Source of the DNA: Escherichia phage vB_EcoM_G2494
Direction: 5' to 3' (one strand)
Sequence record: MK327935.1
DNA: 64,000 bases
Program-made: the position numbers and the translations under genes
Notes under the pieces: generated by a model
Databases searched by the model: none
Seen by the model: only the letters and a program-made list of their open reading frames with translations
Told to the model about the DNA's origin: nothing
In this document: positions 47,783 through 58,018 of the stretch, in pieces
How positions within the stretch are numbered: position 1 is the stretch's first letter
Layout: each line of letters starts with the position of its first letter

Positions 47783-49186
47783 ATGAATAACACTATTAAT
47801 CACGTAAAAGACGATGCACAGTATGTTAAGTTTGACCCTACCGGAAATTGGCCTAGCAATATAAAAAACGTACAAGCGGCATTAGCCGCTATTCAGGGGT
47901 TTGCTATTGCAGGTCTTCCAACGGCAACCGAAGAAACAGCGGGTATTGCTGAAATTGCTACTCAAAAAGAAGTAGATGATGGGTTGGATGGAACTAAAAT
48001 TGTTACCCCAAAAACATTGGCTGTTAAGCTGTCAAGACCGGACGCAACAAAACTTGTCAAAGGGATCACTCGCTATGCTAATAACGATGAAGCTATGGGC
48101 GATACTCCAAATATTGCAATTGGTCCTGATACATTAACCCATGTATTCGAGAAGAAGAAGGCAACGGAAACCGTACAGGGTACAATTAAAATTTGTTCTA
48201 TGGATGCGGCAAAAATAGGTAGCGATGACACTATGGCAGTAACGCCTAAAAAGATGCACGCTGCGATTGCTCAGATTGTTCCTGGATTGATCCCAGAGCA
48301 AAATACCGCTTCCGAATCCCGTGAGGGTCTAGTTAGGCTGGCAACAAGCCAACAAACGCTTGCTGGTACTATCAGAGAAGGATTTGCCGTTAGCCCATAT
48401 GCATTTTCCAACGCAAGAGCCAATGAAAATCAGGCGGGTACTGTTAAAATTGCGTCATCCCAACAAATGATTGACGGTAATGACAACACAGTAGTAGTAT
48501 CAGCACAAAAATTTGCGAACACTAAAGCAACCACTGGACAATTCGGTGTTGTTAAGCTAACAGATAATCCCAGTTCCGGTGAAGCAAATGCTGCGTTATC
48601 TGCAAATGCTCGTGTATTGCCTCTAAGCGGTGGTGTCGTTACTGGTGATGTGTATCGTCATAGTGGAGGTGACGGAAACCAGTTTACCACTAAAAACGAA
48701 ATGGATGCATGGTGTATGCCAATTGGTGCAATTATTCTAACTGCATTCAATAGCAATGATCACGGCGCATTTAAAATTTGTAACGGTCAATGGTTAAATA
48801 AACACCAATATCCAGTATTATTTTCACGAATCGGTTTCACTTACGGCGGAGATGGCGGAGACAACTTTGCTCTACCCGATATGCGAGGGCTTGTTGCTAG
48901 AGGATGCGACCACGGTCGAGGACTAGACCCAGGTCGTGGATTTGGTACTTATCAAGACGACACCATGCAACATATGACAGGTAACTTCCCTGTAGCTAAC
49001 CGTTGGCGCGGTTGGACTGGTGGTGCATTTGCCATCACAGGCGGTCAATGGAGCACGAACTATAAAAACGGTGGTGGTGATGATTGGGGTAGTATTGTTA
49101 ACTTTGACAGCGCAAGACAGGTTAGAACGTCTGGCGAAACTCGCGTTAAAAGCCTTGCATTAAACTACATGATAAGGGTACAATAA
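47783..49186 (+). CDS. 12: short tail fibre gp12
   Basis: 467 aa; repeated AGxxxxAT...DG...VTPK motifs; synteny. Confidence 0.8.
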   Translation: MNNTINHVKDDAQYVKFDPTGNWPSNIKNVQAALAAIQGFAIAGLPTATEETAGIAEIATQKEVDDGLDGTKIVTPKTLAVKLSRPDATKLVKGITRYANNDEAMGDTPNIAIGPDTLTHVFEKKKATETVQGTIKICSMDAAKIGSDDTMAVTPKKMHAAIAQIVPGLIPEQNTASESREGLVRLATSQQTLAGTIREGFAVSPYAFSNARANENQAGTVKIASSQQMIDGNDNTVVVSAQKFANTKATTGQFGVVKLTDNPSSGEANAALSANARVLPLSGGVVTGDVYRHSGGDGNQFTTKNEMDAWCMPIGAIILTAFNSNDHGAFKICNGQWLNKHQYPVLFSRIGFTYGGDGGDNFALPDMRGLVARGCDHGRGLDPGRGFGTYQDDTMQHMTGNFPVANRWRGWTGGAFAITGGQWSTNYKNGGGDDWGSIVNFDSARQVRTSGETRVKSLALNYMIRVQ

Positions 49187-50955
49187 TGATCGAACAGTTA
49201 AACATTCGAAAGATCCCTAACGTCGATGGTGTCCCTGGAGAGGGACAGCATTCTATTAGCTGGATTAAAAATGGTGAATGTCTAAGCGCAGCAACCACAG
49301 AAACAGGACACGAGGGGACGCTTAACCGCGCCCCTTATGCGATTCAAGAAAATATTGTTCGTCTGGATGAAAATTCTAAGACAACGGTAACAAAAGTTAA
49401 CGAAGTTGTTACAGCAGTTAATGATATTAAAACTACTTTAGGCGCGGTTGCTGATGGTAGTATTATTGATATTGTCAATCAAACTATTGCAAAGGTTGAG
49501 TCTGTAGAAGAAAATTTAGGAGAAACTTCAAGGACATTACAAACCACAGTAGATGAACTGGCAGAAACAGGAAAGAAAATTGGTGTTCGTCCGGCAGCAG
49601 ATCCGAGTACACGAACAATATATGATGATATTTCTTTCATCAAACAAGAATTGGGTGCTTTCCCTAACTTCACTATCAACGGTTCTCCAGATCCGGGTAG
49701 TTCAGGTTCCGGTATCAAATATCGAGTTATCCAGAATACGGAAGCATTAAACAACCACGATCAGCGAATCCGCCAACTAGAAAACGACTGGCAAGATTCT
49801 GACGTTGGAGAGCTAACAAAACAAGTTAACAAAATACGAAGCGAGCTAGGCGATACATCACTAGCAACACAGGACAATGTTTATCTTCGTCTTCGCACAA
49901 ACACTAGCAATATCGCTAGTATATCAAACGAAGTTCAGGAAGTAAAGAAAGCGATTCTATTTGAATCAATTCCTGATATCGGGACTAAAGTAACTAAGCT
50001 ACAATCTGATTATACACAGCTTAATGATGAAGTCAACGGCTTTGACGCTGGTATCCGTCCTCGTTTAACTCTTCTGGAAAATACGATTGGCAATCCTCAA
50101 GCCGCTGGAAGTATTGATTATCGATTGACTAATCAAGAACGGGAATTTGTAGATCTTAAATCTATTGTCGGTGTTAGTGGTGCTGATGGCCTACGTGGTG
50201 AGGTTGCACGAATCTCTAACACAGTTGGTACTGATAGTGAGCGTCATACTATCGCAGGTCGTCTAAAAATTGTAGAAAATACACAGGGACGACTAGAAGC
50301 TAGCGTACAGGATATCGAGCAAATGATCGGAGATCGAGATTCCGGTCTAACCGCCGGGGTTATTAAGCTGTCAAGCGACATGTACGGCAATCCAGAAGGA
50401 AGCACGCAGCTTGAACAAGATGGGGTCGTGAAAACTGTTAAGGAATTGAGCACATCAAATGCAAGCAAGGTAACAGACGTTCCTGATGATGGTTTCCATT
50501 ATCTACGTAAGCACGGGGAATGGGTTCAGGTCGCATGGGCGGCTGGTACATTTAAAAACACCGCTCAGATTGATATTACTCTCGACGGACAAGATCAATA
50601 CAAAGGAATCCCGCTAAACGATATGACCGAAGAAGTTCCTGCGCGTGGAATGGTTAAGAGCGAATCTCTTGTTACGGTTAACGACAAAGGCTTATTCCGT
50701 TGTGATTTCCGTTGTTCTGTACATGCGGCAAATAACGCTACTTTCGTAGTCGGTATTGCTAAAAATGGTCTGATTGTACATGAGGTACGAAATGGTCATT
50801 ATGGAACTGATGATTTAATTAGCTATTCTACCAGTGCTTTCCTAAATATTGAAAAGGGCGACCGGATCGATATTCGCATTAAGGGCGTATCCGAAGAAGC
50901 ATTAGCGCAACAGCTACAAATTAAAGAGTTCCTCTTTGGAATTTCTCCGGTATAA
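49186..50955 (+). CDS. wac: fibritin (whisker) with C-terminal extension
   Basis: 589 aa; N-terminus VDGVPGEGQHSISWIKNGE resembles T4 Wac; foldon-like DGFHYLRKHGEWV followed by about 130 extra residues. Confidence 0.8.
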   Translation: MIEQLNIRKIPNVDGVPGEGQHSISWIKNGECLSAATTETGHEGTLNRAPYAIQENIVRLDENSKTTVTKVNEVVTAVNDIKTTLGAVADGSIIDIVNQTIAKVESVEENLGETSRTLQTTVDELAETGKKIGVRPAADPSTRTIYDDISFIKQELGAFPNFTINGSPDPGSSGSGIKYRVIQNTEALNNHDQRIRQLENDWQDSDVGELTKQVNKIRSELGDTSLATQDNVYLRLRTNTSNIASISNEVQEVKKAILFESIPDIGTKVTKLQSDYTQLNDEVNGFDAGIRPRLTLLENTIGNPQAAGSIDYRLTNQEREFVDLKSIVGVSGADGLRGEVARISNTVGTDSERHTIAGRLKIVENTQGRLEASVQDIEQMIGDRDSGLTAGVIKLSSDMYGNPEGSTQLEQDGVVKTVKELSTSNASKVTDVPDDGFHYLRKHGEWVQVAWAAGTFKNTAQIDITLDGQDQYKGIPLNDMTEEVPARGMVKSESLVTVNDKGLFRCDFRCSVHAANNATFVVGIAKNGLIVHEVRNGHYGTDDLISYSTSAFLNIEKGDRIDIRIKGVSEEALAQQLQIKEFLFGISPV

Positions 50956-51001: not shown

Positions 51002-51934
51002 ATGTCAGGATATGTAACCAATAACCCAAGAGAATTAAAAGACGCTATTCTGCGTCGTTTAGGCGCACCAGTAATTAACGTAGAAGTCACAGAAGACCAG
51101 ATTTACGATTGTATTCAGAGAGCACTAGAACTCTATGGGGAATATCATTTCGATGGTGTGAATAAAGGATATAAAGTATTTCGTGTTAGTGCAGAGCAAG
51201 CGCAACATGGGGTATTTGATTTAAGCGATTCTGGTGTATTCGCAGTAACTAAAATAATTCGAACAAACGTAGGTAGCGCGGCTACGATGGATGGCACTGC
51301 CGTTTATCCGTGGTTTACCGACTTTCTGTTGGGTTTAGCGGGTGTAAATGGCGGTTTAGGATCTGGCTGTAGTAAATTTTATGGTCCAAATGCAATGGGC
51401 GGTGATCTAGGATATTTCGAACAGCTTATGAGCTATCGAGCCACTATGCAAAATATGCTCAATCCGCTGCCAGACTATTGGTATAATAGCGCAAACGGAC
51501 AACTTAAGATTACAGGAAACTTCCGAGAAGGTGATCTCATTGTTGTTGAATTATATGTTAAAAGCTATATAGACGTTCCTGATATGATCGGCGCGGTTGC
51601 TGGTTATGCTCATGCAGGAGGATGTTCTACCGCTGGCGGGATTAGCGCCGTTTATGATAATCCAACTGCTGGTTTAAGCGGGATTGTTGCTGGAATGGGA
51701 CCGATCCGTGATAACAAGCAGGGCGCATATAATAACCGTTGGGTTAAAGACATGGCAACCGCTTTCACTAAGGAGGTTTGGGGGTCCATCATGGCTAAAC
51801 ATCAAGGTCTGCAATTACCCGGCGGTGTCACTGTTGATGGTATCCGAATCATTGAAGAAGCACGCGCCGACATTGAGAAATTGCGACAAGAACTAGAATT
51901 ATTAGATCCTCCGTTCGGCATCCTCATGATTTGA
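51002..51934 (+). CDS. 13: neck protein gp13
   Basis: 310 aa (T4 309 aa); synteny. Confidence 0.75.
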
Positions 51935-51970
51935 TTTATTGGGGGAGTATTCCCCCATTTGGAGTAACAT

Positions 51971-52711
51971 ATGTTTAACAACACTCTTTTTGCTCGCCTT
52001 GAATCGCAGAAGGACTACGAGAATACACGACAAACAGAGATTCTTAATCCTTATGTGAACTTTCACAAATATACAAATACTCAGACGTTAGCCGACGTTA
52101 TGGTCGCCGAAGCTATTCAGATGCGAGGTGTAGAATTATATTACATCCCTCGTGAATTTGTCAAACCAGATATGATCTTTGGTGAGGATGTTCAAAGCAA
52201 ATTTACTAAAGCATGGAAATTTGCGGCTTATATTAACTCATTTGATGGGTATGAAGGAGCGGGTAATTTCTTCTCTAGTTTCGGGTATCAAGCTAATGAT
52301 GAACTAACTTTTACGGTTAACCCCAACCTATTCAAGCATCAAGTAGATGATCAAGAGCCAAAATCAGGTGACTTAATTTATATTCCAATGAGTAATGATC
52401 TCTTTGAAATTAATTACGTCGAGCCATATCAGCCGTTTTTTCAGGCTGGAAAAAATGCCATGCGTAAAATTATTGCAGAGAAATTCGTGTATAGCGGTGA
52501 GGAATTGCGACCAGAATTACAACGCAATGAGGGAATTAATGTTGATGAGTTTGCGGATCTGGATCTTGCACCGATCACTAATCTGGACGGGTTAACAGAT
52601 ATCAACTTAGATCAGTACAAAGAAGATAAGCAATTCAGAAGCGAAGGACAAGATTTTATTGATCCGTTTGATCCTATTAATGGCAAGGGTTCACCTTTCG
52701 CCGATTTTTGA
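51971..52711 (+). CDS. 14: neck protein gp14
   Basis: 246 aa (T4 256 aa); synteny. Confidence 0.75.
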
Positions 52712-52751
52712 TAAATACTTGTATTGATATAATATAAGGATCTAATGACTT

Positions 52752-53507
52752 ATGAAAAACTATTATCTATACGAAATAAAGAACAATATAAATGGTAAGA
52801 TATATGTTGGCATTCGTGGGTATGATGGTGACATAAGTCAAGATCCTTATATGGGTAGTGGATTGACTCTTAAGAGGTCTATTAAAAAGAACGGGATAGA
52901 AAACTTCACAAAAACAATTCTCAAAACGTTTGACTCATGGAAAGAGGCAAGGAAAGCAGAAAGAGAAATAGTTACAGAGGAATTTGTAAAAAGAGAAGAT
53001 ACCTATAATGTTTCGGTTGGTGGACAAGGTGGAAATACTCACGCTGGGATGAGCGAAGAACGAAGAAAACTTGCAAGCGAAAGACACGCAGAAGCAAACC
53101 GAAATAGAGTATGGAAGCAAGAATCTAGAGATAAGGTTAGCGCAAGATTCAAAGGTCATAAGCTATCACAGAAGCAGATAGACGCGCTAAAGAAGGCAAA
53201 CACAGGAAGAAAGTTCACAGAAGAACACAAGTTCAAAATAGGTAAAACGTGGCGAGGAAAGAAACGACCAGATATAGGAGAGAAGGTTGCGGCAAAATTA
53301 ACAGGGAGAAAACTACCCCCAGAACATGTGGCAGCAATAACGCAAAATACACCGAGAGGAAAACAACACTTTAGGGCAAAAAGATTCTTCATCGACGATA
53401 TGGAATTTTATATTTTGAGTGACGCAGCTAAAATGTTTGGTATAAGTTATAAAACGGTTAAAGCTAGACTTCTCTCAGATAAGTTTCCTACATGGAGATA
53501 TGAATAA
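52752..53507 (+). CDS. GIY-YIG homing endonuclease (Seg-like) with NUMOD-type repeats and C-terminal HTH
   Basis: 251 aa; YLYEIKNNINGKIYVGI (GIY-x10-YVG), downstream R/E/N catalytic residues, repeated GxKxSxE-like modules; inserted between genes 14 and 15. Confidence 0.8.
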   Translation: MKNYYLYEIKNNINGKIYVGIRGYDGDISQDPYMGSGLTLKRSIKKNGIENFTKTILKTFDSWKEARKAEREIVTEEFVKREDTYNVSVGGQGGNTHAGMSEERRKLASERHAEANRNRVWKQESRDKVSARFKGHKLSQKQIDALKKANTGRKFTEEHKFKIGKTWRGKKRPDIGEKVAAKLTGRKLPPEHVAAITQNTPRGKQHFRAKRFFIDDMEFYILSDAAKMFGISYKTVKARLLSDKFPTWRYE

Positions 53508-54396
53508 ATGTTTTCACATTTTTACAATTCGTCAATTAGACGGTATATTGTATTGCTGGGTAATTTATTCTCCGGCGTACAAATTAAAAGGGTGCGTAGC
53601 GACGGTGAGCGTTTTATTAAAGTTCCTATCACCTACGCAAAGAAAGAAAAATTCATGATGAGTCTGGACAAATATAACAATATCTCAAGTGAGGAAGACG
53701 TAGCAAAGGTAGAAACTATTTTACCGCGTATGTGTCTTTCTTTGATTGATATGACATACGCCCAGAACTTTAAAACAAATATTGCAAATAAGACAGTACC
53801 AAAATATACGGCTGATGGAATCAGGAGCGTAACACAATATAATCCTGTACCATATAAGTTTACTTTCGAGTTAGGGATTTATACGCGTACAATATAATCC
53901 TGTACCATATAAGTTTACTTTCGAGTTAGGGATTTATACGCGTAACGAAGATGATATGTTTCAGATAATTGAACAGATTCTTCCTTACTTCCAGCCTCAT
54001 TTTAACTGTAAGATTAAAGAACTACACGGTAATGATGTATGGATTGATCGAGATATTCAGGTCACTATTAGTTCTATTACTCCAGATGAACAGGTAGGCG
54101 AAGATAAGTTTTCTCGTCGTCGTCTTGAGTGGACCATTATGTTCGAATTTATCGGCTTTATATATCCTCCAGCTACCGACGTTAAGGGGGAAATTAGAAC
54201 GATTTATCTTGATTTTCATGCTAATTCTCGTGAATTAAATCCTAGCGGTAATTTTGAATCAGTGGATCACGAGGTCGTTAAACGTGACGTCGAGCAAGAA
54301 GATTGGGACGGAACAATCAAAGAATCATATTCTAGTGATATTCCAATACCAGTTGCACCAACTCCACCGGGTCCACGTATTGTAAGAGAATTTTAA
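53508..54396 (+). pseudogene. 15: gene 15 (tail sheath stabiliser/terminator) split by a frameshifting 55-bp tandem duplication
   Basis: ORF track gives 53508-53897 (129 aa) and 53956-54396 (146 aa) in different frames; combined length about 277 aa matches T4 gp15 (272 aa); second ORF has no SD; removing one repeat copy restores one frame. Confidence 0.7.
53834..53943 (+). repeat. perfect tandem direct repeat, 2 x 55 bp
   Basis: acaatataatcctgtaccatataagtttactttcgagttagggatttatacgcgt occurs twice head-to-tail (53834-53888 and 53889-53943). Confidence 0.85.
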
Positions 54397-54409
54397 GAGG
54401 TATTTTATT

Positions 54410-58018
<3,609 letters not shown>

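What the first reader, a model, noticed from the sequence alone, without database searches (positions are those of the whole stretch)
52752..53507. GIY-YIG Seg-like endonuclease inserted between genes 14 and 15, beside the gene-15 lesion
The GIY-YIG catalytic motif, NUMOD-like repeats and a C-terminal HTH identify a Seg-type homing endonuclease. Its stop codon is immediately followed by the gp15 start, and the 55-bp duplication lies about 330 bp downstream; double-strand-break repair near homing-endonuclease sites is a plausible source of such a duplication.
Basis: partly seen in the sequence, partly recalled or inferred. Interest (0 to 1): 0.45.

Follow-up and report, generated by a model that had tools for sequence, protein, structure and literature searches.

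The report
Known Seg-type homing endonuclease; duplication probably an artefact
The ORF is an ordinary, already annotated selfish homing-endonuclease gene sitting between the neck gene 14 and tail gene 15 of an RB49/JSE-like coliphage, and the 55-bp duplication that breaks gene 15 next to it is most likely an untrimmed assembly overlap, not damage done by the enzyme.

Summary
Window 52752-53507 encodes a 251-aa free-standing GIY-YIG endonuclease: an I-TevI-like catalytic fold, five to six 17-aa NUMOD3-type repeats, and an I-TevI-type C-terminal DNA-binding helix-turn-helix. It is 41-45% identical to T4 SegD and SegE. It lies in an ~805-bp cassette that replaces 36 bp between genes 14 and 15 of a Krischvirus.

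The same protein at the same site is already annotated as "homing endonuclease" in JSE, TB34, SAP, FL20, AV108 and MIZ4/5. It also occurs in at least 10 metagenomic or SRA contigs. 49 phage records have the empty site.

The cassette is 15-25 times less diverse than its flanks (pi 0.0014 vs 0.020-0.037). The flanks do not differ between carriers and non-carriers. This points to recent horizontal spread and a target at the empty 14/15 junction.

The link to the gene-15 lesion is not supported:
- None of 26 compared relatives, 16 of them carriers, has the duplication.
- The DNA between the endonuclease gene and the duplication is identical to that of endonuclease-free phages.
- The repeat is perfect, unique in the window, frameshifts an essential conserved gene, and is exactly 55 bp. 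That is the SPAdes k-mer overlap left when a circular contig is rotated untrimmed.

Low interest; already known.

The parts
51971..52711 (+). Gene 14 (neck protein / head closure Hc2), upstream neighbour
   Evidence: Pfam T4_neck-protein E=6.8e-102; annotated gp14 in JSE, RB49 and TB34
52720..53525 (+). Inserted homing-endonuclease cassette (~805 bp). It replaces 36 bp of the empty site in RB49 (CATAAACAAGGGGGTCAAATGTTCGGTTGGCACTAT).
   Evidence: Alignments with TB34 and JSE (occupied) and RB49 (empty). The only fixed carrier/non-carrier differences lie at these boundaries.
52752..53507 (+). Free-standing Seg-type GIY-YIG homing endonuclease ORF, 251 aa
   Evidence: 100% identical to the annotated 'homing endonuclease' of JSE (YP_002922226.1), TB34, SAP, FL20 and AV108.
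52752..53030 (+). GIY-YIG catalytic domain (aa 1-93). Y7 (GIY), Y18/G20 (YIG), E70/E72 and N86 are invariant in the family alignment.
53040..53360 (+). Linker with five to six NUMOD3-type 17-aa helical repeats (aa 97-203)
   Evidence: 17-aa periodicity z=3.0/4.0; NUMOD3 sub-threshold hit at aa 152-173; homologues carry PF07460; six short helices in the model
53358..53501 (+). C-terminal I-TevI-type DNA-binding domain (helix-turn-helix), aa 203-250
   Evidence: Pfam PF20987, E=1.4e-7, 31.7 bits vs cut-off 27
53494..53525 (+). Gene-15 translation start supplied by the cassette: GGAG at 53494-53497 inside the endonuclease ORF, ATG at 53508, and six recoded first codons (MFSHFY in place of RB49's MFGWHY)
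   Evidence: The local RNA fold pairs the GGAG and the AUG, z=-2.15. Coupling is inferred, not shown.
53508..53897 (+). Gene 15 N-terminal fragment (129 aa), ending at a stop created by the frameshift
   Evidence: Pfam T4-gp15_tss positions 1-118. Intact gp15 of relatives is 277 aa and matches T4 gp15 (PDB 4HUD/3J2M) at E=5e-100.
53834..53944 (.). Perfect 55-bp tandem duplication (2 x 55 + 1 nt); probable untrimmed k=55 contig-end overlap
   Evidence: TRF. Absent from 55 phage records, from 26 aligned relatives, from viral contigs and from metagenome contigs.
53956..54396 (+). Gene 15 C-terminal fragment (146 aa ORF)
   Evidence: Pfam T4-gp15_tss positions 122-242

Best explanation
The ORF is a free-standing, Seg-type GIY-YIG homing endonuclease gene. 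It is carried on an ~805-bp cassette in the gene 14/gene 15 intergenic site of an RB49/JSE-like T4-type coliphage (Krischvirus).

By analogy with I-TevI and the T4 Seg enzymes, the protein would bind a long asymmetric DNA site as a monomer, using its C-terminal helix-turn-helix and NUMOD3 repeats. The tethered N-terminal GIY-YIG domain would make a double-strand break in co-infecting relatives that lack the cassette. Recombinational repair from the carrier genome would then copy the cassette in (intronless homing). This mechanism is inferred.

The only sequence that distinguishes carriers from non-carriers is the replaced 36 bp: the 14/15 spacer, the gene-15 ribosome-binding site and the first six codons. 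The most likely target is therefore the empty junction itself, and insertion destroys it. This is also inferred.

The cassette brings a new ribosome-binding site and a recoded 5' end for gene 15. The endonuclease stop codon abuts the gene-15 start. Deleting the cassette would therefore disable an essential gene, which favours its retention.

The neighbouring 55-bp tandem duplication in gene 15 is unrelated to the enzyme. It is most probably the SPAdes k=55 end overlap of a circular contig that was rotated without trimming.
For: Identity of the protein:
- PHROG 314 E=1.3e-46.
- I-TevI DNA-binding domain above the Pfam cut-off.
- Confident GIY-YIG fold whose best PDB matches are the I-TevI catalytic domain.
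- 41% identity over 141 aa to T4 SegD (E=3e-27) and 45% over 91 aa to SegE (E=8e-21).
- Invariant Y7, Y18, G20, E70/E72 and N86.

Mobility:
- The site is occupied in 8 phage records and empty in 49, with the empty site >=95% conserved.
- The identical protein is indexed in 65 blocks of the public assembly collection. All 10 places shown have gp14 / endonuclease / intact 277-aa gp15.
- Among 17 carriers, pi of the cassette is 0.0014. In the same genomes pi is 0.037 (gp13), 0.025 (gp14) and 0.020 (gp15).
- Carriers and non-carriers share identical 360-bp flank haplotypes, and pi+ is about equal to pi- and to dxy in every 100-bp bin.
- JSE was already counted as having one seg-like GIY-YIG endonuclease gene, and RB49 none (PMC2993671, Table 5).

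Target at the junction:
- Fixed differences occur only at 52720-52743 and 53508-53525.

Duplication as an artefact:
- It is exactly 55 bp, 100% identical and the only such repeat in 64 kb.
- It is the window's only private variant across gp13-gp16.
- It frameshifts gp15 inside a segment conserved with T4 gp15.
- It is absent from all relatives.
- PMC8483715 reports 55-bp overlapping ends on a SPAdes contig of a T4-like phage, trimmed before the genome was reopened.
Against: - No biochemical or genetic test of this enzyme exists to my knowledge.
- T4 free-standing endonucleases usually cut hundreds to thousands of bp from their gene (PMC2988022). A cut at the junction would therefore be atypical for the family, and a target beyond the ~1.7 kb examined on each side is not excluded.
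- The family's near-invariant His after the YIG motif is Tyr24 here, next to a 2-aa insertion. The I-TevI Arg27 equivalent could not be assigned. The paralogue of MIZ4 shares this 'R-x-x-D-G' variant.
- The artefact reading cannot be proven without reads. The source genome is not in the searchable collections.
Confidence: 0.8

Rival explanations
1. First reader's reading. The endonuclease cuts in gene 15 about 330 bp downstream of its own gene. Illegitimate (microhomology-type) repair of such a break produced a real 55-bp tandem duplication.
For: Free-standing T4 endonucleases do cut hundreds of bp from their genes, and illegitimate break repair at microhomologies is documented in T4 (PMC2988022). 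The duplication is close to the endonuclease gene, 327 bp away.
Against: - 16 other carriers have intact gp15.
- The sequence from the endonuclease gene to the duplication is identical to that of endonuclease-free phages, so there is no immunity polymorphism.
- Carriers share no co-converted haplotype across 53526-53889.
- The junction has only 1 bp of microhomology, and the nearby 7-bp GCGTAAC direct repeat is out of register, 58 vs 55 bp.
- The product frameshifts an essential, conserved gene.
- The length equals a default assembler k-mer.
Confidence: 0.04
2. The duplication is real but unrelated to the endonuclease, for example replication slippage or template switching in a subpopulation or laboratory stock. 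It would be tolerated either because the two gp15 halves assemble, or because it is a minority variant captured by the assembler.
For: The two ORFs together lack only about four gp15 residues (NEDD), and the second ORF starts at an in-frame Met. Perfect identity fits a very recent event.
Against: gp15 is an essential tail terminator. The break lies in a stretch conserved from T4 to Krischvirus. There is no convincing ribosome-binding site before the second ORF. The duplication is never seen in 55 phage records or other collections. The exact 55-bp length would be a coincidence.
Confidence: 0.08
3. The endonuclease gene is an inactive or domesticated remnant, inherited vertically and lost repeatedly. 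It would be retained only because it now carries the gene-15 translation start.
For: A family-conserved His is replaced by Tyr24. The cassette supplies the gp15 ribosome-binding site and start. T4 SegD, a close homologue, has no listed target or demonstrated activity in the 2010 review's Table 1.
Against: Cassette diversity is 15-25 times lower than the flanks in the same genomes. The cassette sits in many different flank haplotypes that are shared with non-carriers. This is the signature of recent horizontal spread, not of old vertical inheritance. The ORF is intact and 100% identical at protein level across isolates from several countries.
Confidence: 0.08

Closest known systems
Annotated 'homing endonuclease' of Escherichia phage JSE (YP_002922226.1; EpJSE_00154), and the same gene in TB34, SAP, FL20, AV108 and MIZ4/5
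   Same: 100% amino-acid identity (99.6% in MIZ4/5). Same insertion boundaries between genes 14 and 15, and the same recoded gene-15 start. JSE's single seg-like GIY-YIG gene is tabulated in PMC2993671.
   Different: Only the neighbouring 55-bp duplication in gene 15, which none of them has.
Phage T4 SegD and SegE (free-standing GIY-YIG Seg endonucleases)
   Same: Homologous catalytic domain: SegD 41% over 141 aa, SegE 45% over 91 aa. Free-standing between essential late or repair genes. Sporadic distribution among close relatives.
   Different: Different insertion site (T4 segD lies between 23 and 24, segE between inh and uvsW). Longer NUMOD3 linker and an I-TevI-type C-terminal HTH. The 'GIRGYDG' variant replaces 'G-x-H' after the YIG motif. 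The inferred target is at the insertion junction rather than at a distance.
I-TevI (intron-encoded GIY-YIG endonuclease of the T4 td intron)
   Same: Best structural match of the catalytic domain. Same modular plan of catalytic domain, long linker and C-terminal HTH DNA-binding domain (PF20987 above cut-off).
   Different: Not intron-encoded. The linker is built of NUMOD3 repeats, and no zinc finger was identified. Only 24-25% identity in the catalytic domain.
Second GIY-YIG endonuclease between genes 13 and 14 in MIZ4 and SRA contig L026
   Same: Full-length paralogue, 33% over 264 aa (E=2e-36), with the same architecture and the same R-x-x-D-G variant. Same neck-gene neighbourhood.
   Different: Different intergenic site, 271 aa, and absent from the window.
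SPAdes k-mer end overlap on circular or circularly permuted phage contigs
   Same: Exact 55-bp, 100% identical repeat, one per genome. Rotating an untrimmed contig turns the terminal overlap into an internal tandem duplication. A 55-bp overlap is reported for a T4-like phage assembly (PMC8483715).
   Different: Not verifiable here, because the reads and assembly history of the source genome are unknown.

Membership tests
GIY-YIG homing endonucleases (I-TevI / Seg type) | GIY-YIG catalytic fold (beta-beta-alpha-beta-alpha core) | tested here: met
   AF2 pLDDT 87-97 over aa 1-90 with E2-11, E17-25, H38-47, E52-60, H63-73. Foldseek top three hits are the I-TevI catalytic domain, probability 1.00, TM 0.65-0.67.
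GIY-YIG homing endonucleases (I-TevI / Seg type) | Conserved motif residues: Tyr of GIY, Tyr/Gly of YIG, catalytic Glu, Asn | tested here: met
   Y7, Y18, G20, E70/E72 and N86 are invariant in the 26-sequence alignment A3. The motif aligns to I-TevI IYQIKN...VYVG.
GIY-YIG homing endonucleases (I-TevI / Seg type) | Conserved Arg (I-TevI R27) in the active site | tested here: inconclusive
   No unambiguous equivalent was found. The query has R22 in a 2-aa insertion, and Tyr24 where the family has a near-invariant His.
GIY-YIG homing endonucleases (I-TevI / Seg type) | Separate C-terminal DNA-binding module joined by a linker (NUMOD repeats / HTH) | tested here: met
   PF20987 I-TevI_DNA-bd at aa 203-250, 31.7 bits vs cut-off 27. 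17-aa periodicity in the linker, z 3.0/4.0. NUMOD3 is sub-threshold in the query but called in homologues.
T4 Seg family (free-standing, intronless homing) | Sequence homology to characterised or named Seg proteins | tested here: met
   SegD E=3e-27 and SegE E=8e-21. The Pfam SegE_GIY-YIG hit is just below its cut-off, 20.1 vs 25.
T4 Seg family (free-standing, intronless homing) | Free-standing gene in an intergenic site, present or absent among otherwise collinear close relatives | tested here: met
   8 occupied vs 49 empty phage records, with identical boundaries.
T4 Seg family (free-standing, intronless homing) | Site-specific double-strand break (2-nt 3' overhang) in the endonuclease-free allele, with the carrier allele spared | not testable with these tools
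   Indirect evidence only: the sole fixed carrier/non-carrier difference is the replaced 36-bp junction.
T4 Seg family (free-standing, intronless homing) | Biased inheritance with co-conversion of flanks in mixed infection | not testable with these tools
   Indirect evidence only: cassette pi 0.0014 vs flanks 0.020-0.037, in many flank haplotypes shared with non-carriers.
Endonuclease-linked insertion in an essential gene, tolerated by translational bypass (T4 mobA / gene 60 type) | The insertion co-occurs with the endonuclease gene across carriers and disrupts the enzyme's target; a stop codon follows the take-off codon, with a matched landing codon in frame | tested here: not met
   The duplication is absent from 16 other carriers. 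The codon before the stop (ATA at 53892) has no ATA downstream in the restoring frame, by inspection of the sequence.
Assembler k-mer overlap artefact | Perfect repeat of exactly a default k (55), single occurrence, absent from relatives, biologically implausible consequence | tested here: met
   Precedent in PMC8483715.
Assembler k-mer overlap artefact | No sequencing read spans both copies plus unique flanks | not testable with these tools
   The source genome and its reads were not identifiable. Exact-protein look-ups of four window proteins found nothing.

The most novel reading that the evidence does not exclude
The 55-bp duplication is real and is a product of endonuclease activity on its own genome. 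The Seg enzyme would also nick or cut inside gene 15, with illegitimate repair duplicating 55 bp. The phage would survive because the two gp15 halves assemble, or because ribosomes hop 55 nt between identical codons of the two copies. That would be a newly arisen analogue of the T4 mobA / gene 60 bypass cassette.
Probability: 0.03. Interest if true: 0.7.

Novelty: already known. Interest (0 to 1): 0.12.

Why it matters
As it stands it matters little. The gene is a catalogued, though biochemically uncharacterised, selfish element of RB49/JSE-like phages.

Two modest points are useful:
- The population data give a clean natural example of a free-standing endonuclease cassette that has swept into many flank backgrounds. 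It shows essentially no linked co-conversion tract. It has also captured the translation start of an essential gene. Together these predict a target at the empty junction, which would be unusual for Seg enzymes and is easy to test.
- The gene-15 'lesion' is a likely curation error, an untrimmed 55-bp overlap. It should be corrected rather than interpreted biologically.

Tried and rejected
- Carrier-specific polymorphisms (immunity sites) in genes 13-16. I compared 17 carriers with 11 non-carriers and found none outside the junction. The apparent 'fixed' sites at 52720-52743 and 53021/53022 are the 36-bp empty-site sequence aligned into the insert.
- A diversity valley or co-conversion tract next to the cassette, in 100-bp bins. 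None was found; pi+ is about equal to pi- and to dxy.
- The duplication junction elsewhere. It is absent from phage records, IMG/VR, JGI metagenomes and all fetched loci. The wild-type junction control gave only 2+2 hits, so the collection scans are weak negatives.
- Identifying the source genome, to compare an independent assembly. Exact-protein look-ups of both gp15 fragments, wac and the gp17 N-part all came back 'not on record'.
- Microhomology at the duplication. Only 1 bp is shared, and the 7-bp GCGTAAC repeat is 58 bp apart, so it is out of register.
- RNA structure hiding the endonuclease's own translation start. None was found (z=-0.22).
- Gene-60-type bypass signals. The reading frame and codon arrangement do not fit.
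- Direct sequence search of the PDB with the single protein gave nothing. A profile gave only a motif-level I-TevI hit, E=0.04. The fold search was needed.
- Sigma-70 promoter and terminator scans were not above the shuffled expectation in a meaningful way.

Full report
**What is there**

The window comes from an RB49/JSE-like T4-type coliphage (genus Krischvirus). Megablast of 51900-54500 finds 68 phage records, the best being TB34/SAP at 99.3% and FL20 at 98.6%. No record is identical, and exact-protein look-ups of four window proteins are 'not on record'. The source genome is therefore not in the collections available here.

The local gene order is as follows:
- wac, 49186-50955
- gene 13, 51002-51934
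- gene 14, 51971-52711
- the flagged ORF, 52752-53507
- gene 15 in two pieces, 53508-53897 and 53956-54396
- gene 16, 54410-54907
- gene 17

**The ORF**

It encodes 251 aa. Family and structure evidence:
- PHROG 314 'homing endonuclease' matches at E=1.3e-46.
- Pfam gives I-TevI_DNA-bd at aa 203-250 above the curated cut-off. SegE_GIY-YIG and NUMOD3 fall just below theirs.
- An AlphaFold model built on 26 homologues is confident for aa 1-90.
- The three best PDB matches of that model are the I-TevI catalytic domain, with probability 1.00 and TM 0.65-0.67.
- In the family alignment Y7, Y18, G20, E70/E72 and N86 are invariant. These are the GIY Tyr, the YIG Tyr/Gly, the catalytic Glu and the Asn.
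- The linker has a 17-aa periodicity with G[HRK]K in register five times. These are the NUMOD3-type repeats.
- Direct comparison gives 41% identity over 141 aa to T4 SegD and 45% over 91 aa to T4 SegE.

One oddity: the family's near-invariant His after the YIG motif is Tyr24 here, next to a 2-aa insertion ('GIRGYDG'). The paralogue found between genes 13 and 14 of MIZ4 shares this variant.

**It is an insertion, and it is already known**

Alignment with RB49 shows an ~805-bp cassette (52720-53525). It replaces 36 bp: the 14/15 spacer, the gene-15 ribosome-binding site and the first six codons. Gene 15 now begins MFSHFY in place of MFGWHY. Its ATG directly follows the endonuclease TAA, and a GGAG lies inside the endonuclease ORF.

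The identical protein at the identical site is annotated 'homing endonuclease' in JSE, TB34, SAP, FL20 and AV108, and it is 99.6% identical in MIZ4/5. Petrov et al. 2010 already count one seg-like GIY-YIG gene in JSE and none in RB49 (PMC2993671). 49 phage records carry the empty site, conserved at >=95%. The exact protein is also indexed in 65 blocks of public assemblies. All 10 places shown have gp14 / endonuclease / intact 277-aa gp15.

**Evidence that it is a mobile element, and where it probably cuts**

I compared 17 carriers with 11 non-carriers.
- Cassette diversity is pi=0.0014. In the same carrier genomes pi is 0.037 (gp13), 0.025 (gp14) and 0.020 (gp15).
- In every 100-bp bin of both flanks, pi among carriers, pi among non-carriers and the between-group divergence are about equal.
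- Carriers share identical 360-bp flank haplotypes with non-carriers. For example, the window's first 364 bp of gene 15 equal those of MIZ6, Delraymugoa and kaaroe.
- The only fixed differences are at the cassette boundaries.

This is the pattern expected of a cassette that recently spread horizontally into many backgrounds. It leaves the replaced 36-bp junction as the only candidate for a site that is present in non-carriers and destroyed in carriers.

T4 free-standing endonucleases typically cut hundreds to thousands of bp away from their genes (PMC2988022). A junction target would therefore be atypical and remains an inference. A target further than ~1.7 kb away is not excluded.

**The gene-15 lesion**

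The 55-bp tandem duplication at 53834-53944 is real in the sequence. It is perfect and is the only tandem repeat of score >=60 in the window. It is also the window's only private variant across genes 13-16. It frameshifts gp15 within a stretch conserved with T4 gp15, which the intact protein of relatives matches at E=5e-100 (PDB 4HUD/3J2M).

It is absent from:
- 55 phage records;
- all 26 aligned relatives, including 16 carriers;
- IMG/VR and JGI metagenomes. The wild-type control gave only 2+2 hits in these two collections, so these are weak negatives.

The junction shares only 1 bp of microhomology.

The length is exactly 55 bp, a default SPAdes k. A circular or circularly permuted genome assembles into a contig whose ends overlap by k. 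Rotating that contig without trimming produces precisely a perfect internal k-bp tandem duplication. A T4-like phage announcement explicitly reports trimming such a 55-bp overlap before reopening the genome (PMC8483715). The general behaviour of the assembler is stated from my own knowledge.

I estimate 85-90% that the lesion is this artefact.

**Verdict**

- Observation: confirmed.
- Seg-type endonuclease reading: supported.
- Link to the duplication: not supported.
- Novelty: already known.
- Interest: low.

The residual exotic reading is a real, endonuclease-caused duplication tolerated by split gp15 or ribosome hopping, echoing T4 mobA / gene 60. It is not strictly excluded, but it fails the tests that could be run: the duplication is absent from other carriers, and the stop and landing-codon arrangement does not fit. 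I give it about 3%.

Noticed in passing
window 54904-56655 and 56636-58015: The large terminase gene 17 is in two overlapping ORFs.

- ORF 1 (583 aa) carries Terminase_6N up to profile position 106, ending '...FIYIDE'. It then has a Cys, an intein-N-like stretch, CxxC motifs and a TnsA-like / endonuclease-I-like PD-(D/E)XK domain at aa 485-574.
- ORF 2 (459 aa) begins with ~106 extra residues ending 'VESHN|C', then resumes Terminase_6N at profile position 105, followed by Terminase_6C.

This looks like a split intein or 'fractured gene' with an embedded endonuclease. The same 583-aa form is annotated in TB34, SAP and kaaroe. RB49 and JSE have an uninterrupted 607-aa gp17. FL15 has a 938-aa contiguous form annotated as DnaB.
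   Followed up: partly
L006 682-1497 (MIZ4); L026 1368-2183 (SRR12268560 contig): A second free-standing GIY-YIG / NUMOD3 / I-TevI-HTH endonuclease (271 aa, 33% identical to the one studied) sits between genes 13 and 14 in some Krischvirus genomes. The neck-gene cluster is therefore a hot spot for Seg-type insertions.
   Followed up: partly
window 50400-50914 (3' half of wac): The C-terminal half of fibritin (wac) exists as two sharply divergent alleles among otherwise ~98% identical Krischvirus genomes; pi is about 0.12-0.16 there. The window carries the FL20 / JSE / KMB43 / FL15-type allele, which indicates mosaic exchange independent of the endonuclease cassette.
   Followed up: no
window 52225-52324 (gene 14) and 51750-51901 (gene 13) in JSE (L002): JSE alone carries dense clusters of substitutions in short patches of genes 13 and 14. 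These look like imported tracts from a more distant relative.
   Followed up: no
window 53470-53560: In carriers the predicted RNA fold pairs both the gene-15 GGAG and its AUG in small hairpins (MFE -19.1 kcal/mol, z=-2.15). The empty-site RB49 leader shows no such structure (z=-0.55). This would fit translational coupling of gp15 to the endonuclease ORF, but the signal is modest.
   Followed up: partly
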